43,466 nucleotides of DNA, from the IMG/VR virus record IMGVR_UViG_3300045988_091197. One strand, written 5' to 3'. Each line of letters opens with the position of its first letter. Position 1 is the stretch's first letter. A model generated the notes under the pieces. That model saw only the letters and a program-made list of their open reading frames with translations. It did not search any database and was not told the DNA's origin. Below are positions 15,001 through 41,124 of the stretch, one piece after another. A program made the position numbers and the translations under genes. The DNA is from a virus.

Positions 15001-18000
15001 CAGCCGAAGGCAAAGGAAAGCGCCGCCGAAACGGCGGAAAAAGCTCCTCCAAAGGAAAACGACGAGCTTACGAGGCTGCGGGACAGGCTTGATGCATTGA
15101 GATATACAGAAGTAAACGGCTTCGGCTTTGCAGTGACCGCGACTGCGGGAAAGGACGGGGAGGCTGTATATCGAGCACGCATAAACAGAGTTGCCTCCGA
15201 CCCGCTTCACATCGAGGACGCAAAGGCGGTGTACAGCGAAGCCTTCACAAGCCTTGAGGACGCGATCGAGTCACTGGTTGCGGTTGCGGAGAACAACAAT
15301 TTGCTCACGCCTGTCGAGGCGGACAAGGAAGCAACGGAAACAAAAGAAACCGTCGCACAAGAAGAAGCACCGGCAAAGAGCGACGAGAAGAACCGGGAGA
15401 TGGAAAGCGGCACTCCGTCTGAAAAGACCGCTTACAGGATACTCACCGAGTATTTAGCTGCCGGAAAGAAGCTTACAAGCAAGGAGCTTTACAGCATTTG
15501 CGACGAGACCTTCAACGGCACTCAGGCAGAGGGAGCATATGACCGTAAAGCGGCATATGACGCGATGGAGCTTGCCGTGAACAGATACCTGCTCACAAAC
15601 GCCGCAGATTTGAACGGAGACACGGCAGAAGACGCGAGAAGAGGGCTTGAACGAGTGCAGGGCATACTGTCGCTTCTCCCGACGCAGAATGTCCGTACAC
15701 AGGAAATGGAGCAGTTTCAGCAGTTCTCCACGCCTCCTAACATAGCATACCTCGCGGCGTGGGCAGCAGACATAAACAGCTCCGACCTTGTTCTTGAGCC
15801 GTCGGCGGGAATAGGCGGCCTTGCTGCTTTTGCAAAGGCGTGGGGAGCGGAGGTAGCCGTGAATGAGCTTTCTGAACGCAGGCTTGCGGTGCTGAAAGCT
15901 ATGGGATTCGACCATGTTTTCAACGAGAACGCAGAGCAGATAGACAACGTCCTTCCGGAGAGCATAAAACCGACGGCTGTGATCATGAACCCGCCGTTTT
16001 CTTCCACGGCAGGACGCACGGCAACGAATAAGACCTCAAACGCGGAGCGGCATATAAATCAGGCGCTTGCGCGGCTGAACGACGGTGGAAGACTTGTTGC
16101 TATTCTCGGCAGAGGCATGGCAGATAAAGCCTACAGTAAGTACTGGGATAAGCTGCGGCAGGATTATAATATCCGTGCGAACATCTCTATTGACGGGGAA
16201 AACTATAAAAAGTACGGCACTACCTTTGATGTGCAGCTTGTTGTGATAGATAAAACAGGGGCGCAGGGCAGCGCAGAGACTGTTACGGGAAGCTACAAAG
16301 ACCTTGCGGAAATACCAAATGTTTTGGAGGGAATAAGAAATGACCGAAGTGCAGAGACTGAACGCGACTCCGCTGTCGCAGGGGTTCAAGAAGCTTCTCC
16401 CGTGGAACAGGGCGGAGAGGGAACTGTACGTGCTCCAGTGGATACGGCAGACGGTGGAGCTGATGCAGGGGTACTGGAACTCGGGAGCAGACCCGGAAGT
16501 ACTGGCGAACCTCGAAGCGCTGACATTCACGGAGAAGTACAGCGAGGCATACAGGATGCTTCTGCCGCCGACGGAGCCGCTGTACAGCAACAGCGAGCTG
16601 ATGCGGCAGATAAAAAGAGTGGAAAGCGCACAGACAGAGGAGCAGATAGAGGAGAAGAGCGTAACACTGCTAGAGATGCTGGTGGACAACTCAACATTCA
16701 GCGACTCGGAGCTGGCGGACTTGAAACCGAGTCTGCACGAGGACAGGTAACCGAAAAGGGGCGGTCAAATAAGCGCAGTGATGACGGCGTTTATGCGGAT
16801 TATGTCGCGCCGGAGCTGACAGTTAAGGGCAGCAAGCCGCACCCGGCAGTGCTTGTGGAAAGCTCGGCTATGTCGGCGGTTTTCATGCCGAAGGCGACAT
16901 ACACTCCTCACCTGCCGGAGAATGTTATAAAAAACAATCTTTCAACAGAACAGCTTGTATCTGTTACATATGCAGGTCAGGCGCACGAACAGACACTCCC
17001 AAACGGCGAACGCAAGGGCTTCTTTATCGGCGACGGCACGGGCGTCGGCAAGGGCAGAGAGATAAGCGGAATCATCTTGGACAACTTCGAGCAGGGCAGA
17101 GACAAGGCCGTGTGGATATCCATGAATGACAAGCTTTTCGCAGACGCGCAGAGAGACTGGGCTGACACGACCGGCAGAGGAAAAGATGAAATTCATCTTC
17201 AAGGAAAAACAAAGCTACAAAACAAAATAGACTTCGGAAGCGGAATTCTGTTCACCACATATCCAACACTCAGAACGGAGAAAGGGCAGCTCAGCCGAAT
17301 AAATCAGATCGTCGAATGGCTAGGAAAGGACTTTGACGGAGTCATAGCGTTTGACGAGGCGCATAATATGGGTAATCTTCTCGGTTCAAGCGGCAAGTTC
17401 GGCAGAACGAAAGGCTCGGCAATGGCGGCGGCAGCCGTCAAGCTTCAATCCCTACTCCCAAAGGCGAGGGTGGTGTATGTATCGGCGACGGCGGCAACGG
17501 ACGTTCAGGGGCTTGCATTTGCCTCGCGGCTTGGACTGTGGGGGCGCGGCACGGCGTTTACCGACGTCAACGATTTCGTGTCGAAGATACAGTCCGCCGG
17601 GCTTGCGGCGATGGAGCTTGTCGTGCGTGATATGAAAGCGATGGGCGTTTATGTTTCGCGCAGCATCAGCTACAACGGCGTTAGCTATGACACCGTGCAG
17701 CATGATCTTGACCCGATGCAGACCGAGATATATAACACCATGAGCCGCGCATGGCAGAAGACAATGGGCAGCGTGGAGGAATCCCTCAAGTCCACCGGTG
17801 GGGTACACAACAGCAACGCGAAGCAGCTTGCCATAGGCCAGTATTACAGCGCCATGCAGCGCTTTTACAATCAGGTTCTTACCTCCATGTCTATGCCAAG
17901 CGTTATAGCCGACATGAAAAAGGAGCTTGCGGCCGGAAAATCATGCGTACTCCAGATAGTAAACACGAACCAAGCCGAAGCCGACCGCCAGATAGCGAGC

Positions 18001-21000
18001 ATAAAGGCGGACGGCGGAAGCCTTGACGACATGGATTTAACGCCGCGCGGGACGCTTATAGGCTATCTTGAAAACTGCTATCCCATTATCCAGTACGAGG
18101 AATACACGGACGAAAACGGTGCTGTAAGGTCGCGCCCGGTAACTGACAGCAAGGGGGAGCCGGTAATTGACAGAGCCGCGGTGAGAAAGCGCGACGCGCT
18201 TATCGAGGAGGTCAAGCAGATGGCCATCCCGGACGGCCCGCTTGAAATGCTGTTTAATGCGTTCGGCACGGATCAGGTTGCAGAGATAACCGGCAGAACG
18301 CGGCGCGTTGTGCCGCGCAAGCAGCCGGACGGCAGCATAAAAAGAGTTGAGGAGAGTCGCAGCAAGGCACACACGGCGGCGGACGTGCAGGCGTTTCAGG
18401 ACGGGGATAAGCGAATACTTGTATTCTCGGACGCCGGCGGCACGGGCAAGAGCTATCACGCGTCCAGAACTGCGAAAAACCAGCAGCAGCGCGTACATTA
18501 TGTATTGCAGCCCGGCTGGGTAGCGTCAAAAGCTGTGCAGGGCTTTGGCCGGACACACCGCAGCAATCAGAGCAGTGCACCTATCTATAAGCTCGTAACC
18601 ACAAACATCAAAGGGCAGAAGCGCTTTACATCGACGATTGCCCGCAGGCTCGACCAGCTCGGCGCGCTTACCAAAGGGCAGCGAGACACCGGCAGCGGAA
18701 TGTTCGGCGCAAAGGACAACCTTGAAACCGACCTCGCGCGGGACAGTCTGAGAGAATTTTACCGCCGACTCGGCAAAAACCAAATCGACGGCATTGACGG
18801 CATGGACACCTTGCAGCGGCTTGGACTAAAGAGCAAGTTCACGGATGAGTTCGGCGCGTTCAAGCTTGACGACTCAACGTCGCGAGATATAAGCACCTTC
18901 CTTAACCGCATACTTGCGCTTGAGGTAGACGAGCAGAACACGCTGTTCGATGCATTTATCAACATCTACGAGACGGAAATGGAAGCCGCGATTCAGGCCG
19001 GTACGCTTGACACCGGTATGGAGAATGTCAAGGCGGACAAAATCGAGATTGTCGACGACAAGGTTATCAAGGAGCAGGAGACAACCGGCGCGGCGACGCA
19101 CTATATTCAGGCGAAGATCTATACCAAGCCCAAAATCATATCCACGGTTGCGGCGGCGGAGGGGCTGCGCAGCGGCTTCATGGGGATATACAAGACCAAA
19201 AACGGAGATATCCGCGCAGTGTACCGCATTGCGGACAAAACAACGGAATGGGGCGAGGTACAAAAGCAATACAAGCTGCAATCTCCGAATGCCGCCAAAT
19301 CCTCCATATGGAAGGAGAGCAGCTTTGAAAAGAACGCTGAGCTGCTGCCAAAGGACGAATGGCAGACCGAATGGGACAAGGAGATAAAAAAAGTCCCCGA
19401 ATATAACGAGGACACTAAGCATATGCTCACCGGTACGCTGCTGCCGATATGGTACGCCCTCCCCGATGACGGCAACACAAAGGTGCAGCGGCTTGTTGCT
19501 GACGACGGCTCCACATATCTCGGCAGGGTAATAAGCCCTGACAAGATTGACGACGTTCTCAAGCGCTTCAATCTCAACCGTACGAAGGAGATTTTTACGG
19601 CTGAAAAGGTGATGGACTCGGCAATAAAGCGAGGGACGCGATTTGACCTGACATATTACAGGGCTCAACTGTTCAGAAGCCGTGTAAGCGGAGAATGGCG
19701 GCTTGAATATAAGCAGGGGCAGAACTCATGGTACGTCGCTCGGCAGTTCCCGGAGCTTATCCACGAGAAAATAAACTATCAAGACCGCTATTTCGTGCCT
19801 CTCAACGATGAGGGACGAGCAGTGCTTGACAAAATTCTCGAAGAAAACCCGGTAACAAATACGAGCGAGGGCAGCGACTCAGACGGCTATGTGCAGTATT
19901 CAAAGCGCGGCAGGGACGATTCCTCGGTCGATTCATACGACCCGGAAACGGCCAACGTGAAAGAGCAGATCGCGAACAGCAGTGCTGAGCTGAACAAGAT
20001 GACCGTCGCGGCGACCGTTAACGCGCCTGCAAACTTCACGAGCAAAGAAGCGGCAAGTAAATGGGCTATCGCTATGCTTGAGCACACGGGATTTCAGGTT
20101 GACCGGAAGAACTTCGGGAAAATCTTTTTCTCTCAAAAGGATATCAAAACAAGCGTTAGGTATGCTGACACGGCGGCAGAGAAAGCCGCTTTCGCGGCTC
20201 TGCCGGCTGTGCTGAAAAAGGGCATAGAAATAGGCAGACACAGTAACCACAAAGCGCGAGGCAAGGAAACGGTTACTTTTGCGGCACCGGTTATCCTAAA
20301 CGGTGTACGCGGTAACATGGGAGTGGTCGTTAATCTCAGGGGCAATCACTACTATGCGCACAGAATCGTGCTACCGGACGGCGGGATATTTGTTCTGTCA
20401 GAAAACGAAAATGATGCAGCACGAGAATTGCCCCGGGGAGTGACCATTTCTGGCTCTCTTGCCGACGCCACAAGTACTGCATCTGTAAATAGTATAGCAT
20501 CCGGCTTGAATTTTGACAAGGAAAATTTTGCAACAGAGGTTGACACGGAACTTTCAACACGCGCACCGGCGCTTTCAGACCGTGAGGTTCTGCAATATGC
20601 GGCTAAAAACATAGACGCAAGCACCCTCACACCGGCGCAGGCTGACGCGCTGAGAATATTCAAGGAGCGCGTTGACAGGCTGCAAGAGCTTCAGGAGCAG
20701 CGGCAGGAGCTGGGGCGTGAGTACCGCGAGCAGCAATTCAAACGACCGGTAGACCGCAACGCGGCGACGGTGACGAAAAACAGGATGGGAGTACTCGACG
20801 GCAAAATCCGGGCGCTCGAAAACAGCGTTGTTTCGCTTGAGGACAAAGATGTATTGCGTCAGGTGCTGAAAGAAGCGCGGCGGTTTGTTGAAAAACGCGA
20901 GCGGACGCAGGGCGCACTGAGGCTGAAAGAATACCGCGAAGCGCGCAACGAAAGCGCAAGCCTCAAGAAGTACCGCGCAAGGGTGCTCAAAGAGGCTGAA

Positions 21001-24000
21001 ACACTGCGGGACATGCTTATGAATCCAAGCAACAAAAACGTGCTGAAACGCGTACCCGGAGCGATACAGAAAACGGTAGCGGACTTTATAGGCGCGATAG
21101 ACTTCACCAGCAAACAGGCTTTGCGCGGCGGAGCGGCGACGCAGGCCGACCAGCGCATTATGTCACAGATGCGGGCGATGCGGGATGCAATCAAGGATAA
21201 CATTGACCTTCAAGGCGAATACTCAGGGTACGCCGACTTGCCTCCTGACTTTATGGATAGCTTCCAGAAGCAGATAGACCGGATGCAGGAGTTAGTAAAC
21301 GAGAGCAGCGGAGAGTATGTTATAAACAAGATGTCTGCCGCTGAACTGAGAGAGCTTGCGCACACGCTGCGAGATATACGCCGATATATTCAGGACATGA
21401 ACCGCTTCCACGAAAACGCCATGTTCCAACACGCTTACGATGCGGGTGAGGATACGATAGCCGACTTGGAGGCAAAGGGCAAGGCGCGGAGACTGCGCAA
21501 CAACGAGATATATAACGGGCTTGCGTGGAAGTATATGCGCCCCGTTTACGGCCTTGAACGTCTCGGAAGGGGCGGAAAGTCAATAAGCGACGAGTTCAGA
21601 AAAGGGCAGGCAAAGCAGGCATTCCTTGCAAAGCAGGTTATAGATTTCTCTGAAAAAGCTTATACCGCTAAGGAAGCGCAGGCGTGGAGCCGCGAAGTGA
21701 AAGCCGTACAGATAGGCGACTCGACCGTACACATGACGGCTGCGCAGGCGATGAGCTTTTATTGCCTTATGCGCAGGCCGCAGGCGAGGACTCATATCTT
21801 CGGGGACGGTATCCGCGTTGCCAACTTTGAAAACGGGAGGATGGTCTACCGCGACGAAGGGCACCGGCTGACGGTCGGAGAGGCAAACGCAATTATAAAC
21901 AGCCTGAGCGAGAGGCAAAAGGCCGTTGCGGATGAGCTGCAGAAGTTTATGTCCGAAGAGTGCGCCGAGTGGGGCAACTATGTCAGCCTTGCGCGCTTTG
22001 GGACAAAGCTCTTCGGCGAAGAAAACTATTTCCCGATAAACTCCGACGGGCGTTATTTGCAGGCCACGGCAGACGAAAGTCCAAGCAACGCAAGCCTTTA
22101 TGCGCTGCTGAATATGGGCTTTACCAAAGAGCTGAACGAAAAGGCGAGGAACCGCATAGTGCTGTATGACATTTTCGACGTGTTTGCAAACCACGCAGCG
22201 AGTATGACGCAGTACAGCAGCTTCGCTCTGCCGGTTCTCGATGCGCTTAAATGGTTCAACTACAAAAATGATGAAACATCGGTTCGTGACAAGATGGCGG
22301 CGGCTTACGGTGCGCCGACCGAGAGCAAGCCGGGAAGCGGGTCGAAGAGCTATGCCGAAAGCTTTGTGCTGAATTTGCTCAAACAGTATAACGGCACAGC
22401 GGCTCGCGGAGATGCATTTGATGCATGGGGAATAAAGGGATTGCACCTGTTTAACCGTGCACAGGTTGCTTTTAACGTGCGAGTTATCATACAACAGCCG
22501 ATGGCCATTACGCGCGCGGCGCAGATCATCTCGCCCACGAAGCTTGCGAAAGGACTATCCGTGTCAGCGACGCAGATGAAAACCCTTGCGGCAGAGATGG
22601 AGGCGCACAGCGGAATAGCGGCGTGGAAAGGACTCGGTTTTTATGACACGAACATCTCGCGCGGCCTTACGGCACTGATAAAGCACGATCAGAGCTTCGC
22701 CGGCAAAGTTACGGAAGCAGGCATGACAGGCGCGGAGCAGGCAGACCGCTTTACGTGGGCGGCTATGTGGTATGCCTGCAAGGACAGTGTGAAGCGCGGC
22801 GACTACAAGACCGAGGGCGAGTATTTTGATGCAGTAACGGAACTTTTCGAGGACGTCATATACAAAACTCAGGTTGTCGACAGCGTACTTACAAAGGCGG
22901 AATTTCTGAGAGCGCAGGGATTCTTCCCACGAATGATGGGCTCCTTCATGTCGGAGCCGAGCGCGACTGTATCCATGCTTATGGACACGTATATGCAGTA
23001 CACCGACGCGCTTCAAAGCGGCATGAGCAAAGGGGCAGCGTGGCAGAAGTACGGAGATACCATACGCAGGACTATAACGGTATATGCCATCGGGCAGGTG
23101 CTCATATCTGCGGTTCAGGCCGTGGCGGATGCATGGCGCGACGACGATGACTACCAGACATTCTGGGAGAAGTATCTCGAAGCACTCAAGGGGAACCTTG
23201 TTGATAATCTGCTTCCGTTCGGCAATATCCCGTATGTTTCAGAACTGTATGACCTTGCAAAGAACCTTTTATCAAAGTTTGGCGTGGACACATACGGCAG
23301 CGGCATTTCAAACGGATGGATGCAGTATGCGCAGTATCTTGAAAGAGCGACAGAAATCTTCGCGGATAAGATTCGTGGCAGCAATACGCGGTACACCACA
23401 TGGGGTGGCGTGTACAACCTGCTGCGCGCCGTGGCCGGCATGACCGGGTTGCCTTTGGCTACAGCCACACGCGAGGTCATCGACGTGTGGAACAACACCA
23501 TAGGCGCAGCAAACCCTGACAGGAAGATAAAGACCTATGATTCCGGCGCAAAGGCGAGTATTAAGTACGCATATCAGGACGGTTATCTGAGCTTCGACGA
23601 GGCGGTTGAAAAGCTCCGCGAGAAGGGCGTGGAAACCGACAAAAACAAGGCGTACTTAATGGTCAAGAGCTGGGATACGGGCGGAAAGTACAGCGAATTG
23701 ACGGCTGCGGCTGCATCCGGCGACCGGGCAGCGTTCAGAGCGGCGCTGCAGGAACTCGTAGAACACGGCGTTGCGGAGAAAGACGCTTACAATGCGGTGA
23801 GGAAGGATATCAAGGAACGGTATCTGGACGGAGACATCACCGAAGTGCAGGCAATAAGCGCGCTTACTGCGTTCGGTGACAAAGACCGCGACGAAGCGCA
23901 AGGCTATGTTCAGGGCTGGCAGTTCAGCCGGGATTACCCGCAGTATGACTGGACGGATGCTGAGATAACAACATACAGCACAGACATAAAGCGCACGGGG

Positions 24001-24213
24001 ATAAGCCCGGATGTATTCGACAGGTATCTCACAGAACTTGATAACTGCAAGGGAACCGACGATGACGGCGACGGCAAGACCGACAGCGGCAGCGTCAGGG
24101 CGCAGGCGATTGTTATGATAGATGCACTTCCGATAAGCGCGGCGCAGAAAGACGCGCTGTATCTTCTCAACTGGAAGGAAAGCACTCTGAGCAAGACGCC
24201 GTGGCACAGCTAA
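12025..24213 (+). CDS. Giant 4062-aa polyvalent protein with zincin-like HExxH, N6-adenine DNA methyltransferase and SNF2/strawberry-notch-type helicase modules plus a long C-terminal region (DarB-like, probably virion-packaged and ejected)
   Basis: Uninterrupted ORF with AGGAGG just upstream. HEFTH is at 14470-14484. MTase motif I VLEPSAGIGG is at 15790-15819 and motif IV NPPF at 15988-15999. Helicase motifs are GDGTGVGKG at 17029-17055, DEAH at 17353-17364 and QGFGRTHRSNQ at 18538-18570. Confidence 0.9.
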   Translation: MNSIDRLLAHVDEEEQKRSNAGETAERRGSTGTSDPIKDLLDHVAAVESGELPRYTSTDYSETSYQEPQREQVSFGERIKNFFKGSDNRRDESGLSGSQTQRFRDLQAQLNEIDRNSGYATTAETSDELEQQRRNIIRQLDELDEEAGREARTYSPSDRIDNVIKSWLNRTGAGYTNAAGSILDLGSSKRKSLRQQQEEADMARFAERNPEAAAEAQAAEERYRQSLRGARDSTYKAADKMQSSAERQLAKSEYGTSAAGSFAIDAAMTGADIITDAAFAKLTGITGLANMALRVYGSESQDARLSGDDAETAAAKGLKAATIEVITEKLAGPFELAYGKSLGRQAMGKTAGKIARVFDRLETNGVLKWVFDTAGEGAEEGLSDVLNIIADHVFNWDDGDMTILEEIASDKDDILYDMILGAFVGAFGATTSAIAEGEQGRRVKNIYGKEGAAALVDEGLLSGEGTKSRRLAERYNEKLQSGRELTGREMSQLIEANDMAFADESPENRGADASEPEQTDHVEKAISKIAKNDTEADLLREDFTLGEADAETYARGAEEAYNYGKLGVSMEDAVQNGSFINDLTEAQRDHAYKLGQQESSADTLTEEDAAQGAEADTADANAENVDAYAAKYGDEAPAVIASYNSGEVKGIGEFSTAFDAAYNMGRSGVPESELSASAALSYLSDAQRKTAFDMGRASASKAAAQAQTEVKSAAKPGKLNRKGVVKGEGVTLKELKSTFNDRQNTAYRLLSTFAEATGVDVVLYKTSAEPDGSFASEQGRFTWKDDTIYVDINSGLYSSKDVESLGKYTMMRTFAHEFTHFIEKWNPAQYNDFRSFVFGTLAGKGESVNDLIESKMSLDSSGKLDYEQASREVIADAMVDILPDSNIVQRLASEHESIYKKLLQKLRDFTARLKQYYKEITTRPGREAQALKEQVGEGTRYMQSIVDMWTNAAEGAVRSYKAAEGTEQRIENKAKPEATKLKEAPKQKPKTEQPKAKESAAETAEKAPPKENDELTRLRDRLDALRYTEVNGFGFAVTATAGKDGEAVYRARINRVASDPLHIEDAKAVYSEAFTSLEDAIESLVAVAENNNLLTPVEADKEATETKETVAQEEAPAKSDEKNREMESGTPSEKTAYRILTEYLAAGKKLTSKELYSICDETFNGTQAEGAYDRKAAYDAMELAVNRYLLTNAADLNGDTAEDARRGLERVQGILSLLPTQNVRTQEMEQFQQFSTPPNIAYLAAWAADINSSDLVLEPSAGIGGLAAFAKAWGAEVAVNELSERRLAVLKAMGFDHVFNENAEQIDNVLPESIKPTAVIMNPPFSSTAGRTATNKTSNAERHINQALARLNDGGRLVAILGRGMADKAYSKYWDKLRQDYNIRANISIDGENYKKYGTTFDVQLVVIDKTGAQGSAETVTGSYKDLAEIPNVLEGIRNDRSAETERDSAVAGVQEASPVEQGGEGTVRAPVDTADGGADAGVLELGSRPGSTGEPRSADIHGEVQRGIQDASAADGAAVQQQRADAADKKSGKRTDRGADRGEERNTARDAGGQLNIQRLGAGGLETESARGQVTEKGRSNKRSDDGVYADYVAPELTVKGSKPHPAVLVESSAMSAVFMPKATYTPHLPENVIKNNLSTEQLVSVTYAGQAHEQTLPNGERKGFFIGDGTGVGKGREISGIILDNFEQGRDKAVWISMNDKLFADAQRDWADTTGRGKDEIHLQGKTKLQNKIDFGSGILFTTYPTLRTEKGQLSRINQIVEWLGKDFDGVIAFDEAHNMGNLLGSSGKFGRTKGSAMAAAAVKLQSLLPKARVVYVSATAATDVQGLAFASRLGLWGRGTAFTDVNDFVSKIQSAGLAAMELVVRDMKAMGVYVSRSISYNGVSYDTVQHDLDPMQTEIYNTMSRAWQKTMGSVEESLKSTGGVHNSNAKQLAIGQYYSAMQRFYNQVLTSMSMPSVIADMKKELAAGKSCVLQIVNTNQAEADRQIASIKADGGSLDDMDLTPRGTLIGYLENCYPIIQYEEYTDENGAVRSRPVTDSKGEPVIDRAAVRKRDALIEEVKQMAIPDGPLEMLFNAFGTDQVAEITGRTRRVVPRKQPDGSIKRVEESRSKAHTAADVQAFQDGDKRILVFSDAGGTGKSYHASRTAKNQQQRVHYVLQPGWVASKAVQGFGRTHRSNQSSAPIYKLVTTNIKGQKRFTSTIARRLDQLGALTKGQRDTGSGMFGAKDNLETDLARDSLREFYRRLGKNQIDGIDGMDTLQRLGLKSKFTDEFGAFKLDDSTSRDISTFLNRILALEVDEQNTLFDAFINIYETEMEAAIQAGTLDTGMENVKADKIEIVDDKVIKEQETTGAATHYIQAKIYTKPKIISTVAAAEGLRSGFMGIYKTKNGDIRAVYRIADKTTEWGEVQKQYKLQSPNAAKSSIWKESSFEKNAELLPKDEWQTEWDKEIKKVPEYNEDTKHMLTGTLLPIWYALPDDGNTKVQRLVADDGSTYLGRVISPDKIDDVLKRFNLNRTKEIFTAEKVMDSAIKRGTRFDLTYYRAQLFRSRVSGEWRLEYKQGQNSWYVARQFPELIHEKINYQDRYFVPLNDEGRAVLDKILEENPVTNTSEGSDSDGYVQYSKRGRDDSSVDSYDPETANVKEQIANSSAELNKMTVAATVNAPANFTSKEAASKWAIAMLEHTGFQVDRKNFGKIFFSQKDIKTSVRYADTAAEKAAFAALPAVLKKGIEIGRHSNHKARGKETVTFAAPVILNGVRGNMGVVVNLRGNHYYAHRIVLPDGGIFVLSENENDAARELPRGVTISGSLADATSTASVNSIASGLNFDKENFATEVDTELSTRAPALSDREVLQYAAKNIDASTLTPAQADALRIFKERVDRLQELQEQRQELGREYREQQFKRPVDRNAATVTKNRMGVLDGKIRALENSVVSLEDKDVLRQVLKEARRFVEKRERTQGALRLKEYREARNESASLKKYRARVLKEAETLRDMLMNPSNKNVLKRVPGAIQKTVADFIGAIDFTSKQALRGGAATQADQRIMSQMRAMRDAIKDNIDLQGEYSGYADLPPDFMDSFQKQIDRMQELVNESSGEYVINKMSAAELRELAHTLRDIRRYIQDMNRFHENAMFQHAYDAGEDTIADLEAKGKARRLRNNEIYNGLAWKYMRPVYGLERLGRGGKSISDEFRKGQAKQAFLAKQVIDFSEKAYTAKEAQAWSREVKAVQIGDSTVHMTAAQAMSFYCLMRRPQARTHIFGDGIRVANFENGRMVYRDEGHRLTVGEANAIINSLSERQKAVADELQKFMSEECAEWGNYVSLARFGTKLFGEENYFPINSDGRYLQATADESPSNASLYALLNMGFTKELNEKARNRIVLYDIFDVFANHAASMTQYSSFALPVLDALKWFNYKNDETSVRDKMAAAYGAPTESKPGSGSKSYAESFVLNLLKQYNGTAARGDAFDAWGIKGLHLFNRAQVAFNVRVIIQQPMAITRAAQIISPTKLAKGLSVSATQMKTLAAEMEAHSGIAAWKGLGFYDTNISRGLTALIKHDQSFAGKVTEAGMTGAEQADRFTWAAMWYACKDSVKRGDYKTEGEYFDAVTELFEDVIYKTQVVDSVLTKAEFLRAQGFFPRMMGSFMSEPSATVSMLMDTYMQYTDALQSGMSKGAAWQKYGDTIRRTITVYAIGQVLISAVQAVADAWRDDDDYQTFWEKYLEALKGNLVDNLLPFGNIPYVSELYDLAKNLLSKFGVDTYGSGISNGWMQYAQYLERATEIFADKIRGSNTRYTTWGGVYNLLRAVAGMTGLPLATATREVIDVWNNTIGAANPDRKIKTYDSGAKASIKYAYQDGYLSFDEAVEKLREKGVETDKNKAYLMVKSWDTGGKYSELTAAAASGDRAAFRAALQELVEHGVAEKDAYNAVRKDIKERYLDGDITEVQAISALTAFGDKDRDEAQGYVQGWQFSRDYPQYDWTDAEITTYSTDIKRTGISPDVFDRYLTELDNCKGTDDDGDGKTDSGSVRAQAIVMIDALPISAAQKDALYLLNWKESTLSKTPWHS
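16340..16750 (+). CDS. Candidate overprinted gene (136 aa) in the +1 frame of the giant gene's methylase-helicase linker
   Basis: GGAGGG at 16326-16331, an 8-nt spacer, then ATG 16340. An in-frame TAA lies at 16334-16336. The product has globular, helix-like composition. About 108 of 136 codons end in G/C (hand count), while the host frame here uses mostly A/T-ending codons. Confidence 0.55.
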   Translation: MTEVQRLNATPLSQGFKKLLPWNRAERELYVLQWIRQTVELMQGYWNSGADPEVLANLEALTFTEKYSEAYRMLLPPTEPLYSNSELMRQIKRVESAQTEEQIEEKSVTLLEMLVDNSTFSDSELADLKPSLHEDR

Positions 24214-39453: not shown

Positions 39454-39567
39454 ATGGAGCGGCTGCGCCTCGCGTCGGACATGTCGCTGCGCCTGTATAA
39501 GCAGCCGCTTATGAAGCCCAGAGCCGTAAAGCCTACAAGGAAACAAAAACAAGGGGATAACGCATGA
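39454..39567 (+). CDS. Possible 37-aa ORF (MERLRLASDMSLRLYKQPLMKPRAVKPTRKQKQGDNA), perhaps a gene remnant
   Basis: Translated by hand. Its stop codon overlaps ATG 39564. No clear RBS. Confidence 0.25.
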   Translation: MERLRLASDMSLRLYKQPLMKPRAVKPTRKQKQGDNA

Positions 39568-40253
39568 TACATGTTGGCGACATAACAAAGCTTAACGGCG
39601 CAAAGCTTGAGCCTGTCTGGTGCATCACAGGCGGCTCACCGTGCCAGGATTTATCCATCGCCGGGAAACGCGCCGGTTTGGCGGGAGCGCGAAGCGGCCT
39701 GCTTATGGAGCAGGTGCGCATCGTAAAAGAAATGAGGGAGGCGGACAAAAGGAATGGACGGACAGGTGACATGGTTAGACCTCGGTATCTCGTGTGGGAA
39801 AACGTGGTCGGAGCCTTTAGCAGCAACAAAGGAAAAGACTTCGCAGCCGTGCTCGAAGAGATCATCAAAATCGTCGAACCGGAAGCCCCCGGTATTGAAG
39901 TGCCTGAAAAGGGCTGGCCTACCTGGGGAGGGTATCACGATGAAGTGGGAGGACGATGGAGCGTGGTGTGGCGAACTCACGACGCGCAATACTGGGGAGT
40001 GCCCCAACGCCGTCGTCGTATCTCGGTTGTCGCAGATTTTGGAGGAGACACCGCATCCGAAATACAATTTGACCGCAAAAGCATGTCAGGGGATATTACG
40101 GCGAGCGGAGCGTCGGGGGAAGGATCTGCCGAAGCTGCTGAAGCAGGTTTTAATCCAGCAGTCGCAAGGAGCCTCACCGCAAGAGCGGACGGAAGCCCCT
40201 GCGCCGACAGAGACCCCAACATCGTATGCAGTCCGCATCAGGGGGGGCTGTGA
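39564..40253 (+). CDS. C5-cytosine DNA methyltransferase, part A (motifs IV, VI and VIII only)
   Basis: GGSPCQ has its PCQ at 39639-47. ENV is at 39798-39806 and QRRRR at 40005-40019. No FxGxG motif I is present. The gene stops at 40251 immediately after a G7 run. Confidence 0.75.
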   Translation: MIHVGDITKLNGAKLEPVWCITGGSPCQDLSIAGKRAGLAGARSGLLMEQVRIVKEMREADKRNGRTGDMVRPRYLVWENVVGAFSSNKGKDFAAVLEEIIKIVEPEAPGIEVPEKGWPTWGGYHDEVGGRWSVVWRTHDAQYWGVPQRRRRISVVADFGGDTASEIQFDRKSMSGDITASGASGEGSAEAAEAGFNPAVARSLTARADGSPCADRDPNIVCSPHQGGL

Positions 40254-41124
40254 CGGCGGAGGAAAAGGCGCGTTAGTGCAGGCAGAGAAAAGCGGAACAC
40301 TGGGCTGCGGCAATGACCAGACGATATTCTGCCTGCAAGGCGATGGCATCGACAGAGCCGACACTGCCGGATGTAACGGTAAAGGCTGGCGGGAAAATAC
40401 GTGCTATACGTTGAATACCATAGACCGACCGGCAGTGTGCGCCGGGTTCAAGCTGGGCAACAGCGAACAGGCGCGGAGCATAGGCTATCAGGAGGAACTG
40501 TCTCCTACACTGAACGCCGAGTGCGGCGGGAATAAGCCCGCAGTGGTGGCGCTGGACATGACACACGCCTGTGACGTCATCCGCGAGTGCGGGCAAATCG
40601 TGCCCAGTCTCCAAGCGCGTATGGGCACCGGTGGCAATCAAGTTCCGCTGACATACCAGATGAACGGGTTTGGAGATTACCGCGCCGCCGAGGTTGCAAG
40701 CAGTTGTAAGCAACGGGACTTTAAGGACAGCACAGACCTTGTTATCACACACATGGTGGTGCGCCGCCTGACGCCGATGGAGTGCGAACGGCTGCAAGGG
40801 TTTCCCGACCGCTGGACTGACATCGGCGAGTGGACGGACGAAAAGGGAAAGAAGCACAAGGACGCGGACAGCCCACGGTACAAGGCGCTGGGCAACTCCA
40901 TCGCCCTTCCCTTCTGGGACTGGATGCTGCGGCGCATGGCGCGGTATCTGCCCGAACACGCTACTCTCGGCTCGCTCTTTGACGGCATAGGAGGTTTTCC
41001 GTTGGTCTGGCAGGAGACACACGGCGATTATACGGCGCGTTGGGCATCGGAGATTGAGGAGTTCCCGATAGCGGTGACAAAGCTTCGTTTCCCTGAACCT
41101 GAAACAAAGGAGAAACTGCAATGA
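39940..41124 (+). CDS. C5-cytosine DNA methyltransferase, part B (target-recognition region, motifs IX and X, then motifs I and II at the C-terminus); a different frame that overlaps part A
   Basis: GGAGGG lies 7-8 nt before ATG 39940. RRLTPMECERLQGFP is at 40762-40806, GNS at 40891-40899 and FDGIGG at 40978-40995. The ORF-track start at 39754 gives junk-like sequence up to 39940. The true start, or a frameshift join with part A, is uncertain. Confidence 0.6.
   Translation: MKWEDDGAWCGELTTRNTGECPNAVVVSRLSQILEETPHPKYNLTAKACQGILRRAERRGKDLPKLLKQVLIQQSQGASPQERTEAPAPTETPTSYAVRIRGGCDGGGKGALVQAEKSGTLGCGNDQTIFCLQGDGIDRADTAGCNGKGWRENTCYTLNTIDRPAVCAGFKLGNSEQARSIGYQEELSPTLNAECGGNKPAVVALDMTHACDVIRECGQIVPSLQARMGTGGNQVPLTYQMNGFGDYRAAEVASSCKQRDFKDSTDLVITHMVVRRLTPMECERLQGFPDRWTDIGEWTDEKGKKHKDADSPRYKALGNSIALPFWDWMLRRMARYLPEHATLGSLFDGIGGFPLVWQETHGDYTARWASEIEEFPIAVTKLRFPEPETKEKLQ

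What the first reader, a model, noticed from the sequence alone, without database searches (positions are those of the whole stretch)
39940..40253. 314-nt stretch of the methyltransferase locus that reads as protein in two frames, ending at a G7 homopolymer
Frame 0 (the part A frame) encodes the indispensable motif VIII region and its tail (…WRTHDAQYWGVPQRRRRISVVADFGGDTASEIQFDRKSMSGD…). It stops at TGA 40251-40253, immediately after GGGGGGG at 40241-40247. Frame +1 has its own GGAGGG, a 7-8 nt spacer and ATG 39940. It reads as an equally protein-like sequence (MKWEDDGAWCGELTTRNTGECPNAVVVSRLSQILEETPHPKYNLTAKACQGILRRAERRGKDLPKLLKQVL…) that continues into the rest of the enzyme. By hand count, codons in the +1 frame are G/C-ending far more often than frame-0 codons between about 40021 and 40165. 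Before 40020 both frames look constrained. There are three possibilities. First, this is a real overlapping two-subunit arrangement (A carries the catalytic Cys loop and motif VIII; B carries the TRD, motifs IX-X and motif I). Second, a +1 frameshift or a change in G-tract length (G7 to G6) fuses A to B, which would make the enzyme phase-variable. Third, the G7 run is a homopolymer sequencing error.
Basis: seen in the sequence. Interest (0 to 1): 0.65.

Follow-up and report, generated by a model that had tools for sequence, protein, structure and literature searches.

The report
Hidden gene inside phage cytosine methyltransferase
The stretch really does encode protein in two frames, because a previously undescribed small gene lies hidden in the +1 frame of this phage DNA cytosine methyltransferase gene and of its relatives in phages of many bacterial phyla (including coliphage P1); in this window a one-base frame offset at the G7 block fuses that hidden gene to the enzyme's rear half.

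Summary
The locus is a circularly permuted C5-cytosine methyltransferase: motifs IV-VI-VIII, then TRD-IX-X, then I-II at the C-terminus.

The frame +1 sequence is not just the start of a "subunit B". It is a conserved nested ORF of about 130-145 codons.
- It is open in every one of about 160 related loci, including 79 chosen only by frame-0 motif VIII.
- It has its own conserved ATG and Shine-Dalgarno site (window ATG 39754; ATG 39940 is clade-specific).
- It shows a textbook switch of codon-position constraint to frame +1 from about 40035 to 40165.
- That segment is predicted as a confident small helical module (pLDDT 86-96).
- It also occurs in mycobacteriophage Omega, Caulobacter phage DMCA, cyanophage Pan4 and inside P1/P7 dmt. 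Databases list it only as hypothetical.

G7 is the normal length of a conserved block, not an error. In the window's lineage an out-of-frame TRD-module junction puts that block in frame +1. So frame 0 stops after the G-run, and the nested ORF runs on into TRD-IX-X-I.

Relatives with G6 or other 1-nt compensations are single-chain. About 20 lineages keep the split, and their downstream half is under purifying selection. Whether the two chains are active, and what the nested protein does, remain unknown.

The parts
39564..40253 (+). ORF A, frame 0, 229 aa. It is the catalytic half of a circularly permuted C5-cytosine methyltransferase: motif IV PCQ at 39639-39647, motif VI ENV at 39798-39806, motif VIII QRRRR at 40005-40019, a variable G/A/E/S linker, then a TRD-module remnant FNPAV...PNIV. 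It stops at TGA 40251-40253.
39754..41124 (+). Frame +1 ORF, 456 aa. It is the nested conserved ORF (39754 to about 40245) fused, in this lineage, to the methyltransferase rear half: TRD modules, motif IX VRRLTPMECERLQGFPD, motif X GNSI, and the permuted motifs I-II.
39736..39756 (+). Family-wide translation start of the nested ORF: GGGAGG at 39736-39741, 12 nt, then ATG 39754-39756. The ATG is built from frame-0 codons AAT GGA (N-G).
   Evidence: An ATG lies in the first 15 codons of the +1 ORF in 70 of 73 unique loci, always made from frame-0 NAT+Gnn codons (binomial p = 1e-16).
39927..39942 (+). This is a possible second start that occurs only in the window's close relatives.
   Evidence: The ATG is absent in L038-L040 and in most distant loci.
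40021..40165 (+). Conserved core of the nested protein, read in frame +1: SRLSQILEETPHPKYNLTAKACQGILRRAERRGKDLPKLLKQVLIQQ. AF2 predicts a helical module. The same bases in frame 0 encode the tolerant linker ...ADFGGDTASEIQFDRKSMSGDITASGASGEGSAEAAEAG.
40149..40226 (+). FNPAVARSLTARADGSPCADRDPNIV, the front part of a TRD module read in frame 0. In L038-L040 this module continues in frame. Here it is joined out of frame to the next block through the shared bases CATCGTA (40220-40226).
   Evidence: (long and short contexts)
40225..40256 (+). Conserved block TATGCAGTCCGCATCAGGGGGGGCTGTGACGG. Its native reading is YAVRIRGGCDGG, which is frame +1 here.
40241..40247 (+). G7 homopolymer. G7 is the modal length in relatives. 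G6 or equivalent 1-nt changes restore a single frame-0 chain in the window's context.
40957..41097 (+). Permuted N-terminal segment of the enzyme, now at the C-terminus of the +1 ORF: motif I LFDGIGG and motif II ...WASEIEEFPIAVTK.
   Evidence: 54-62% identity to residues 2-49 of canonical relatives; phrog_363 profile positions 51-97.

Best explanation
Two layers explain the finding.

(1) A conserved nested gene lies in the +1 frame of this subfamily of phage C5-cytosine methyltransferase genes. It spans motif VI, motif VIII and the linker after motif VIII.
- It starts at its own SD and ATG (window 39754).
- Its N-terminal ~85 residues are a disordered tail laid over the strongly constrained methyltransferase motifs.
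- Its functional core is a basic helical module of about 50 residues (LSQILE...KY.LS.KAC.GIL.RAE.RGK.LP..L..AL), laid over the methyltransferase's tolerant low-complexity linker.
- So each frame is constrained where the other is tolerant.
- In most relatives it ends after about 130-145 codons, while the methyltransferase continues in frame 0 as one chain.

(2) In the window's lineage, shuffling of target-recognition modules joined a FNPAV...PNIV module to the next block through the shared bases CATCGTA, one base out of register.
- The block with its normal G7 run therefore lies in frame +1.
- Frame 0 stops two codons after the run.
- The nested ORF loses its own stop and runs on into TRD, IX, X and the permuted motifs I-II.
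- The locus thus encodes a 229-aa catalytic fragment and a 456-aa fusion (or 394 aa if started at 39940).

Inferred, not shown: the two chains assemble into an active enzyme, split at the natural domain boundary after motif VIII. The nested protein normally acts together with the methyltransferase.
For: **Shown: openness of frame +1**
- Frame +1 is open from about -270 or -200 to at least +166 around motif VIII in all 79 viral loci where motif VIII was located.
- It is also open in all 79 genome loci selected only by frame-0 motif VIII at 49-70% identity. These include both canonical and permuted enzymes.
- Frame +2 is closed in the same loci.

**Shown: codon-position diversity**
- Close set: frame-0 position 3 is the most variable up to about 40035. 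It then becomes the least variable (0.06-0.10), while frame-0 position 1 is the most variable (0.14-0.24).
- Diverse set: pi3 is 0.61-0.68 before the +1 ORF. In the linker pi1/pi2/pi3 are 0.51-0.63 / 0.24-0.37 / 0.19-0.27. After the +1 stop pi3 is 0.70.
- Peptide variants: the +1 core is nearly invariant while the frame-0 linker changes freely.
- Deep pairs over the same bases: core identity is 0.59 in +1 and 0.31 in frame 0. On the motif VIII side it is 0.29 in +1 and 0.42 in frame 0.

**Shown: gene-like features of the nested ORF**
- The +1 ATG is conserved in 70 of 73 loci, p = 1e-16, with an SD 7-12 nt upstream.
- ORF length is tightly distributed at 130-145 aa.
- AF2 with a 60-sequence alignment gives pLDDT 86-96 for residues 90-140 and about 50 for residues 1-88.

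**Shown: distribution**
- 3113 representative clusters match at E <= 1e-3.
- 125 phage records match, including P1, P7, Omega, DMCA and Pan4, always in frame +1 of the annotated methyltransferase where checked.
- hhalign across phyla gives 99.8% probability, E = 2e-27.

**Shown: the split**
- G-run and junction table.
- Split loci differ by about 1-17% (mostly 2-6%) over the alignable DNA from their nearest in-frame relatives.
- The downstream half in split loci has no stops, with pN/pS 0.25 at pS 0.40.
- Independent split forms without a G-run occur in distant lineages: L081, L089/L095, L156, and proteins P0310, P0314, P0338, P0349, P0371 and P0388.
- Precedent for an alternative-frame methyltransferase subunit: M.EcoHK31I (PMC2836561).
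Against: - There is no direct evidence of translation (no ribosome profiling or proteomics), no function, and no structural or family match for the nested protein.
- Part of the +1 conservation over motifs VI-VIII must be a by-product of frame-0 conservation.
- The selection tests use related sequences and are descriptive, not phylogenetically corrected.
- Activity of the split enzyme is untested. Most relatives are single-chain, which suggests the single chain is the preferred state.
- Several independent 1-nt compensations (G6; a T deletion in L010; the L016/L035 variants) point to selection to re-fuse.
- The purifying selection on the downstream half of split loci could partly reflect recent recombination with single-chain relatives.
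Confidence: 0.75

Rival explanations
1. Recoding or phase variation at the G-run. The functional enzyme is the single chain. It is made from the G7 template by +1 ribosomal slippage on G GGG GGG C (tRNA-Gly re-pairs perfectly one base forward and gives ...HQGGCDGGGKG, identical to the G6-encoded protein), by transcriptional slippage, or by G7/G6 switching in the phage population (ON/OFF).
For: - G6, G7, G8 and G9 all occur among relatives, and each changes the frame relation.
- 4 of 22 'short-context' loci carry G8 or G9.
- FP_Toutatis changes frame at a different G9 run in the same gene family.
- The G7 is the only long homopolymer in the window.
- The frame-0 stop lies two codons after the run.
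Against: - G7 is short for a contingency tract.
- GGG is not rare here (17% of Gly codons).
- Split loci with an interrupted run (L006, GGGGGAG) and distant split loci without any run (L081) keep intact downstream halves.
- Split loci are distinct lineages rather than near-identical copies of in-frame ones.
- No reads are available.
Confidence: 0.2
2. The split methyltransferase is inactive: a recently broken gene or a fixed OFF state. Only the nested protein, now carrying a long C-terminal extension, still matters.
For: - Most relatives are single-chain.
- Several independent compensating 1-nt changes restore the single chain.
- 31 related loci carry a different disruption, a TAGA insertion after the catalytic Cys codon. 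So inactivation of this gene is common.
Against: - There are no stops in the downstream half of about 20 split lineages, and pN/pS is 0.25 at pS 0.40.
- Split architectures recur in deep lineages.
- The break is at the domain boundary where natural and engineered split C5-methyltransferases work (PMC2836561 for M.EcoHK31I. M.AquI and split M.HhaI come from general knowledge and from papers listed).
Confidence: 0.15
3. The +1 peptide has no start of its own. It is reached by ribosomal frameshifting from frame 0 near motif VIII and gives a trans-frame product: catalytic domain plus helical module.
For: - FP_Toutatis and P0116 encode exactly such an in-frame fusion (motifs IV-VI joined to the +1 core).
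- Canonical C5-methyltransferases carry a superficially similar 'L.DILE...KYYLS' element after motif VIII (from memory).
Against: - A conserved ATG with an SD sits at the 5' end of the +1 ORF.
- The ORF is kept open for about 85 codons upstream of the core in every locus.
- No conserved slippery site was seen.
- A profile of the +1 family does not match solved C5-methyltransferases.
- The Toutatis fusion sits at a G9 run, which suggests a frameshift mutation.
Confidence: 0.07
4. The G7 is a homopolymer sequencing or assembly error, and the gene is a plain single ORF.
For: Homopolymers are error-prone. G6 relatives exist.
Against: - G7 is the modal length of the block in 38 of about 52 loci, in both contexts.
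- 20 independent assemblies share the G7 long-context state, including variants with substitutions in or next to the run.
- Proteins ending GGL* form large clusters (P0123 has 74 members, P0125 has 61).
Confidence: 0.03
5. The frame +1 conservation is not protein-coding. It reflects an RNA structure or a DNA element, or is a pure by-product of frame-0 conservation.
For: No experimental evidence of a product. The N-terminal half overlaps highly conserved methyltransferase motifs.
Against: - There is three-base periodicity of constraint in the +1 register exactly where frame 0 is least conserved.
- The ORF stays open while frame +2 is closed.
- The ATG is conserved.
- AF2 predicts a confident fold.
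- The RNA fold z-score is 0.12.
Confidence: 0.04

Closest known systems
M.EcoHK31I (heterodimeric C5-methyltransferase whose beta chain is encoded in another frame inside the alpha gene)
   Same: A second polypeptide is encoded in an alternative reading frame within a C5-cytosine methyltransferase gene. The enzyme is made of two chains (PMC2836561).
   Different: - The M.EcoHK31I beta chain supplies motif IX. The nested protein here has no methyltransferase motif, and motif IX lies in the ordinary downstream part.
- The nested ORF here overlaps motifs VI-VIII and the linker.
- It is conserved across phyla, and in most relatives it coexists with a complete single-chain enzyme.
Naturally split and engineered split C5-methyltransferases (M.AquI alpha/beta; bisected M.HhaI and M.SssI)
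   Same: The break lies after motif VIII, at the boundary between the catalytic domain and TRD/IX/X. The fragments can assemble (general knowledge; papers listed).
   Different: Here the enzyme is also circularly permuted (motifs I-II on the second chain). The second chain carries the nested protein as an N-terminal extension, and the two genes overlap by 500 nt.
Circularly permuted C5-methyltransferases (M.BssHII; plant DRM)
   Same: The order of conserved motifs is rotated while all motifs are kept.
   Different: The break point here lies between motifs II and III, giving III/IV...X then I-II. This differs from M.BssHII (IX-X before I) and DRM (VI-X before I-V). Those two orders are recalled from memory and were not tested here.
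Overprinted same-strand nested genes of phages and viruses (for example phiX174 B within A and E within D)
   Same: A +1 ORF lies wholly inside another gene. The new frame is partly disordered, and constraint is partitioned between the two frames (reviews PMC8227390 and PMC3494269, listed).
   Different: The host gene is a mobile methyltransferase module rather than a fixed part of one phage genome. The nested ORF travels with it across Bacillota, Actinomycetota, Pseudomonadota and cyanobacterial phages.
Phase-variable methyltransferases with homopolymer tracts (phasevarions)
   Same: There is a G-tract inside a methyltransferase ORF, and its length differs among relatives and sets the frame.
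   Different: The tract is only G7. The split state is stable across many lineages. The out-of-frame state yields a second long ORF rather than a truncation. Within-population switching is untested.
dcm-vsr overlap in E. coli
   Same: A second gene functionally tied to cytosine methylation overlaps a dcm-type gene in the +1 frame (general knowledge).
   Different: The dcm-vsr overlap is a few codons at the 3' end. Here about 135 codons are nested in the catalytic domain, and there is no similarity to Vsr (no Pfam hit).

Membership tests
C5-cytosine DNA methyltransferase (Pfam PF00145) | Score above the Pfam gathering threshold | tested here: met
   A scores 73.7 bits and B 40.2 bits, against a cut-off of 22.
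C5-cytosine DNA methyltransferase (Pfam PF00145) | Catalytic motifs IV (PCQ), VI (ENV) and VIII (QxRxR) present | tested here: met
   GGSPCQDLS, VWENVVG and PQRRRRI are all in frame 0.
C5-cytosine DNA methyltransferase (Pfam PF00145) | Motifs IX and X, and the AdoMet-binding motif I (FxGxG) | tested here: met
   VRRLTPMECERLQGFPD, GNSI and LFDGIGG are all in frame +1 downstream. Motif I is at the C-terminus.
C5-cytosine DNA methyltransferase (Pfam PF00145) | Cytosine-5 methylation activity | not testable with these tools
   Needs expression, then bisulfite, nanopore or restriction-protection assays.
Circularly permuted C5-methyltransferase | A segment that is N-terminal in canonical relatives is found at the C-terminus, with the rest collinear | tested here: met
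   A residues 1-199 match canonical 50-236. B residues 402-448 match canonical 2-49 at 54-62% identity. The same layout occurs in many relatives.
Alternative-frame two-subunit methyltransferase (M.EcoHK31I type) | Second polypeptide encoded in another frame within the first gene | tested here: met
   The +1 ORF overlaps ORF A by 500 nt.
Alternative-frame two-subunit methyltransferase (M.EcoHK31I type) | The nested polypeptide supplies a missing methyltransferase motif (motif IX) | tested here: not met
   The nested part (39754 to about 40245) has no methyltransferase motif and no Pfam or profile match. Motif IX lies outside the overlap.
Alternative-frame two-subunit methyltransferase (M.EcoHK31I type) | Both polypeptides are required for activity | not testable with these tools
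   Needs co-expression assays.
Overprinted (nested, same-strand) protein-coding gene | Alternative frame kept open across diverged relatives | tested here: met
   79 of 79 viral loci and 79 of 79 genome loci. Frame +2 is closed.
Overprinted (nested, same-strand) protein-coding gene | Purifying selection in the alternative frame (constraint on the host gene's synonymous sites with the +1 codon periodicity) | tested here: met
   These tests are descriptive and not tree-corrected.
Overprinted (nested, same-strand) protein-coding gene | Own conserved initiation signals | tested here: met
   ATG in 70 of 73 loci (p = 1e-16), with an SD 7-12 nt upstream in most.
Overprinted (nested, same-strand) protein-coding gene | Product detected | not testable with these tools
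   No ribosome profiling or proteomics data are available here.
Phase-variable (simple-sequence contingency) locus | Homopolymer inside the ORF whose length sets the frame, with length differences among relatives | tested here: met
   G6, G7, G8 and G9 occur, with matching frame states.
Phase-variable (simple-sequence contingency) locus | Length heterogeneity within one population; tract long enough to be hypermutable | not testable with these tools
   No reads are available. G7 is at the low end for hypermutable G tracts (general knowledge).
Programmed +1 ribosomal frameshift site | Slippery site allowing re-pairing in the +1 frame | tested here: met
   caG GGG GGG Ctg: GGG re-pairs with GGG one base forward.
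Programmed +1 ribosomal frameshift site | Site and stimulators conserved wherever the two-frame arrangement occurs | tested here: not met
   L006 has an interrupted run. L081 and other distant split loci have no run. GGG is not a rare codon here.

The most novel reading that the evidence does not exclude
A whole subfamily of phage and prophage C5-cytosine methyltransferase genes, from Bacillota gut phages to mycobacteriophages, Vibrio and Caulobacter phages, a cyanophage and coliphage P1 dmt, carries a previously unrecognised protein-coding gene nested in the +1 frame of the catalytic domain. Its product is a disordered tail plus a basic three-helix module. It would be an obligate partner of cytosine methylation, for example an accessory or assembly subunit of the methyltransferase, or a factor that shields 5mC-modified phage DNA from methylation-dependent restriction. 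It is kept linked to the enzyme by sharing its DNA. Recurrent natural fusions to either half of the enzyme, including the one in this window, are 'Rosetta-stone' evidence for that partnership.
Probability: 0.55. Interest if true: 0.88.

Novelty: new variant of a known kind. Interest (0 to 1): 0.8.

Why it matters
- **A possible overlooked gene in well-studied genomes.** If the nested ORF is translated, one of the most common phage-borne DNA-modification genes, including dmt of the classic phage P1, has held an overlooked second gene. Standard annotation forbids such nested genes, so it appears only as scattered 'hypothetical' or mislabelled 'methyltransferase' entries.
- **A clean natural case of overprinting.** Constraint is partitioned between the frames: each frame's critical part lies on the other's tolerant part. 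The arrangement has been conserved over very long evolutionary distances and through horizontal transfer.
- **It explains odd annotations.** Frameshifts in these genes give long, protein-like chimeric ORFs instead of truncations, and that confuses annotation and domain databases.
- **It is directly testable** in E. coli/P1 and M. smegmatis/Omega. It bears on how phages manage cytosine methylation in the arms race with restriction systems.
- **For this window**, it explains the two-frame stretch and the G7 without invoking an artefact.

Tried and rejected
- **Known family or fold for the +1 protein.** Pfam, NCBIfam, PADLOC, PDB sequence search (single sequence and profile) and Foldseek against PDB gave nothing. 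PHROG 16143 (labelled 'DNA methyltransferase') and two BFVD entries are just other copies of the same ORF.
- **The +1 core as the canonical post-motif-VIII 'L.DILE...KYYLS' element displaced into another frame.** Rejected. It overlaps motif VIII itself rather than following it, and a family profile does not hit solved C5-methyltransferases.
- **RNA structure as the cause of synonymous constraint.** Rejected (z = 0.12).
- **Sequencing error at G7.** Rejected on comparative grounds.
- **ATG 39940 as the conserved start.** Rejected as family-wide, because it is clade-specific.
- **Beta-clamp-binding motif.** Q[LVAI][ST]LF occurs at the N-terminus of the nested protein in several lineages, and QLDLF in Omega. 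It is absent in most canonical members and in the window (QVTWL), so it is left as an idea only.
- **Literature.** Searches for a nested or overlapping ORF in cytosine methyltransferases, or in P1 dmt, found only M.EcoHK31I.
- **Technical.** My first regex for the junction failed and was redone. One paper search failed on a term that was too short.
Full report
**1. The observation**

- ORF A (frame 0) runs 39564-40253 and ends cag ggg ggg ctg TGA.
- G7 is at 40241-40247. It is the only G or C run of 7 or more in the window.
- GGAGGG (39927-39932), a 7-nt spacer and ATG 39940 open a frame +1 reading that continues to 41124.
- Frame +1 is actually open from 39754 (456 aa), so the two-frame stretch is about 500 nt.
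- The GC3 claim holds: for 40021-40165, GC3 is 0.38 in frame 0 and 0.65 in frame +1.

Given the frame-0 protein, resampling synonymous codons leaves frame +1 open over 39940-40252 in 1.4-7% of trials, and over 39754-40252 in 0.04-0.5%. The single sequence is therefore only suggestive.

**2. The host gene**

- Pfam places A on DNA_methylase profile positions 47-131 and B on 257-314.
- A starts at motif III/IV (GDI...GGSPCQ) and carries motifs VI (ENV) and VIII (QRRRR).
- The downstream part carries several short target-recognition modules, whose number varies among homologues. It also carries motif IX, motif X and, at the very end, LFDGIGG...WASEIEEFPIAVTK.
- blastp against canonical relatives from bacterial genomes shows A 1-199 matches canonical 50-236, and the last ~45 residues match canonical 2-49.

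The enzyme is thus a circularly permuted C5-cytosine methyltransferase, with the break between motifs II and III. The same permuted layout is common among relatives.

**3. What relatives show about the split**

Eighty viral loci found with protein A fall into two groups.
- In most, the whole enzyme is a single frame-0 ORF.
- In about 20, as in the window, frame 0 stops just after the G-run and the rest lies in frame +1.

At the DNA level the block TATGCAGTCCGCATCAGGGGGGGCTGTGACGG occurs in two contexts.
- **Short context** (...AEAGASYAVRIRGGCDGGGKG). G7 is in frame with frame 0 in 18 loci. G8 occurs in three and G9 in one, and these are out of frame.
- **Long context** (the window's). A FNPAV...PNIV module precedes the block, joined through the shared bases CATCGTA one base out of register (AAC ATC GTA | TGC against GC ATC GTA TGC).
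  - With the usual G7, the block lies in frame +1 in 20 loci.
  - G6 in six loci, or other 1-nt changes (L010, L016, L035), restore a single chain.
  - G8 in L023 gives the third frame.

G7 is therefore the modal length and not an error. The window's frame offset comes from the module junction.

The split loci are distinct lineages: they differ by about 1-17% (mostly 2-6%) over the alignable DNA from their nearest in-frame relatives. Their downstream halves have no stop codons, and pN/pS is 0.25 at pS 0.40 over motifs IX-X-I-II. They are not decaying pseudogenes.

Split architectures also occur in distant lineages without any G-run.
- L081 is a phage that reads TAG as sense. Its frame-0 chain ends at a TAA in the linker.
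- Other cases are L089/L095 and L156, and proteins P0310, P0314, P0338, P0349, P0371 and P0388.

**4. The key finding: frame +1 is a conserved gene in its own right**

*Openness.* In all 79 viral loci where motif VIII could be located, frame +1 is open from about -270 to at least +166 around motif VIII. This holds whether or not the downstream enzyme is in that frame. Frame +2 is open only from -61 to +65.

To avoid ascertainment through frame +1, I scanned one genome per GTDB species with a frame-0 motif VIII pattern only. All 79 loci recovered carry the same +1 ORF.
- They are 49-70% identical in the frame-0 core and include both canonical and permuted enzymes. Many come from cultured Bacillota.
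- The +1 ORF opens at -197 to -245 and closes at +202 to +241.
- It has the core L-S-Q-I-L-E...K-Y-x-L-S-x-K-A-C-x-G-I-L-x-R-A-x-x-R-G-K-x-L-P.
- Only four of these loci are clearly split like the window.

*Codon-position diversity, close set.* Frame-0 third positions are the most variable up to about 40035. From there to 40155 they are the least variable (0.06-0.10), and frame-0 first positions, which are +1 third positions, are the most variable (0.14-0.24).

*Codon-position diversity, diverse set.*
- Before the +1 ORF opens, pi3 is 0.61-0.68.
- From motif VI to motif VIII, pi3 is 0.45-0.55.
- In the linker, pi1/pi2/pi3 are 0.51-0.63 / 0.24-0.37 / 0.19-0.27.
- After the +1 ORF closes, pi3 returns to 0.70.

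*Peptide variants.* The variants make this visible. SGDIAES changes to SGHPAES in frame 0 while frame +1 still reads QGILRRAE.

*Initiation signals.* The 5' end of the +1 ORF has an ATG within its first 15 codons in 70 of 73 unique loci.
- The ATG is always built from a frame-0 NAT codon followed by a G-starting codon (NG, DA, DG, HG...).
- NAT makes up 52% of NAY codons elsewhere in these genes, so binomial p = 1e-16.
- GAGG, AGGAG or GGAGG lies 7-12 nt upstream in most loci.
- In the window this is ATG 39754, with GGGAGG at 39736-39741.
- From the conserved ATG the ORF is typically 130-145 aa.

**5. How far the nested ORF extends**

- HMMER of the +1 peptide against 1.84 billion representatives finds 3113 clusters at E <= 1e-3 and 964 at E <= 1e-10.
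- tblastn of the core finds 125 of 50,697 phage records, always under an annotated methyltransferase gene. Hosts and phages include Vibrio, Mycobacterium, Escherichia (P1, P7, RCS47, SJ46), Streptococcus, Akkermansia, Sinorhizobium, Roseobacter and Pseudanabaena.
- I checked the frames in mycobacteriophage Omega gp127, Caulobacter phage DMCA, P1 dmt and cyanophage Pan4. In each, the match is in frame +1 of the annotated CDS.
- A profile-profile comparison of the Bacillota family with these four gives 99.8% probability, E = 2e-27.
- In deep pairs over the same bases, core identity averages 0.59 in frame +1 and 0.31 in frame 0. For the 50 codons upstream (the motif VIII side), the averages are 0.29 in frame +1 and 0.42 in frame 0.

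So each frame is constrained where the other is tolerant.

**6. What the nested protein looks like**

- AlphaFold2 with a 60-sequence alignment predicts a disordered N-terminal ~88 residues (pLDDT about 50).
- It predicts a confident helical module at residues 90-140 (pLDDT 86-96; helices 91-95, 108-121 and 127-139). This corresponds to window 40021-40173.
- No Pfam, NCBIfam, PADLOC, PDB-sequence or Foldseek match exists.
- PHROG 16143 and two BFVD entries are other copies of the same ORF.
- Public databases call such ORFs 'Uncharacterised protein', 'hypothetical protein' or, by association, 'DNA methyltransferase'.
- RNA structure does not explain the constraint (z = 0.12).

**7. Mechanism**

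*Shown.* The locus encodes two overlapping long ORFs. Frame +1 is a conserved, selected coding frame with its own start. The window's arrangement fuses it to TRD-IX-X-I-II.

*Inferred.* The 229-aa catalytic fragment and the 456-aa fusion (or 394 aa) assemble into an active enzyme.
- The break lies at the domain boundary after motif VIII.
- Natural (M.AquI, M.EcoHK31I) and engineered split enzymes work when broken there (PMC2836561; general knowledge).
- Rough estimates: active as two chains about 0.55; needs slippage or G6 switching about 0.2; inactive about 0.15.

The function of the nested protein is unknown. Three observations point to it acting together with the methyltransferase on DNA (probability about 0.4).
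- It co-occurs strictly with this methyltransferase subfamily.
- Its helical core is basic.
- It is recurrently and stably fused to either half of the enzyme: the rear half here and in other split lineages, the front half in FP_Toutatis and P0116.

An alternative is a factor that handles the consequences of 5mC, such as methyl-dependent restriction. That is speculation.

**8. Comparison with known systems**

- The nearest precedent is M.EcoHK31I, whose beta chain lies in another frame inside the alpha gene. That beta chain supplies motif IX, whereas the nested protein here has no methyltransferase motif.
- The permutation differs in break point from M.BssHII and DRM (from memory).
- The G-run resembles phase-variable methyltransferase tracts, but it is short, and the split is stable across lineages.
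- As an overprinted gene, it fits the known kind seen in phiX174 and others. It is unusual in riding on a horizontally mobile enzyme module across phyla.
- Literature searches found no description of it.

**9. Verdict**

- A sequencing error is very unlikely.
- Novelty: a new variant of a known kind. Interest is high, because it predicts a hidden gene inside P1 dmt and hundreds of other phage methyltransferase genes and can be tested directly.

Noticed in passing
L009, L014, L019-L022, L026-L029, L031, L032, L035, L045, L049-L051, L055, L056, L059-L066, L069, L071, L072 (equivalent to window ~39644/39645, where the window itself is intact): 31 of 80 related viral loci carry a 4-nt insertion, TGT[TAGA]CAG, directly after the catalytic-Cys codon (GGSPC*). 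The ~80 nt upstream are recoded to be more AT-rich. This puts the PCQ motif out of frame with the rest of the enzyme.
   Followed up: partly
L023 1-3010: At exactly the same point (...AATAAT|CAGGATCTATCC), unrelated DNA with two tyrosine-recombinase-like ORFs on the opposite strand (245-1213 and 1215-2819) abuts the methyltransferase. A mobile element appears to target the DNA that encodes motif IV. The TAGA in the other loci may be related. There is no Rfam hit.
   Followed up: partly
L084 (Faecalibacterium phage FP_Toutatis MG711466) 1419-1428: The methyltransferase changes frame at a G9 run between motifs VI and VIII. The annotated first CDS therefore reads motifs IV-VI straight into the nested protein's core. 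Motif VIII lies in neither annotated CDS.
   Followed up: partly
L081 2419, 2863, 3278, 3560, 3653, 3692, 3992: This distant relative has in-frame TAG codons at conserved sense positions of both the methyltransferase and the +1 ORF (for example QDLSI[TAG]GNRDGL). The phage apparently reads TAG as an amino acid.
   Followed up: no
Proteins P0130, P0010, P0104; L167 (Pan4) motif VIII: Some relatives have a 45-nt insertion inside the DNA that encodes motif VIII. It reads YWG-KTIRDSRTGDVLGMGT-PQRRRR in frame 0 and EKPSETAVQEMLSVWGPHSVAEES in frame +1, with both frames open. Pan4 has a similar insertion at the same place.
   Followed up: no
L083 (Mycobacterium phage Omega NC_004688) gp127/gp128: The canonical methyltransferase is cut into two annotated genes by a single in-frame stop (...QSPL*QPMVSEL...) between the linker/TRD region and the rest. 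This is yet another way the enzyme is split after motif VIII.
   Followed up: no
N-termini of the nested ORF in L092, L095, L100, L105, L108, L116, L126, L128, L144, L148, L156, and in Omega: Several lineages have Q[LVAI][ST]LF (QLDLF in Omega) within the first ~12 residues. This resembles the bacterial beta-clamp-binding motif QL[SD]LF. It is absent in the window (QVTWL) and in most canonical members.
   Followed up: partly
window 40246-40900, and homologues P0003-P0116: The region between the G-run and motif IX is built from short cassettes (for example AEVVCMTPWDAQSQRVYDGNGVSPTLSS, AGFKAGQGAQAGGIGYGEEVSPTL, FDTTQITSKENGS). Their number and order differ among close relatives, as in multispecific phage methyltransferases. 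This shuffling created the window's out-of-frame junction.
   Followed up: partly
window 12025-24213 (+): A single ORF of 4062 aa occupies more than a quarter of the window. The window looks like a complete or near-complete phage genome of a gut Oscillospiraceae-type host. The closest records are MT835520 (human faecal phage) and L086 (Oscillospiraceae MAG).
   Followed up: no
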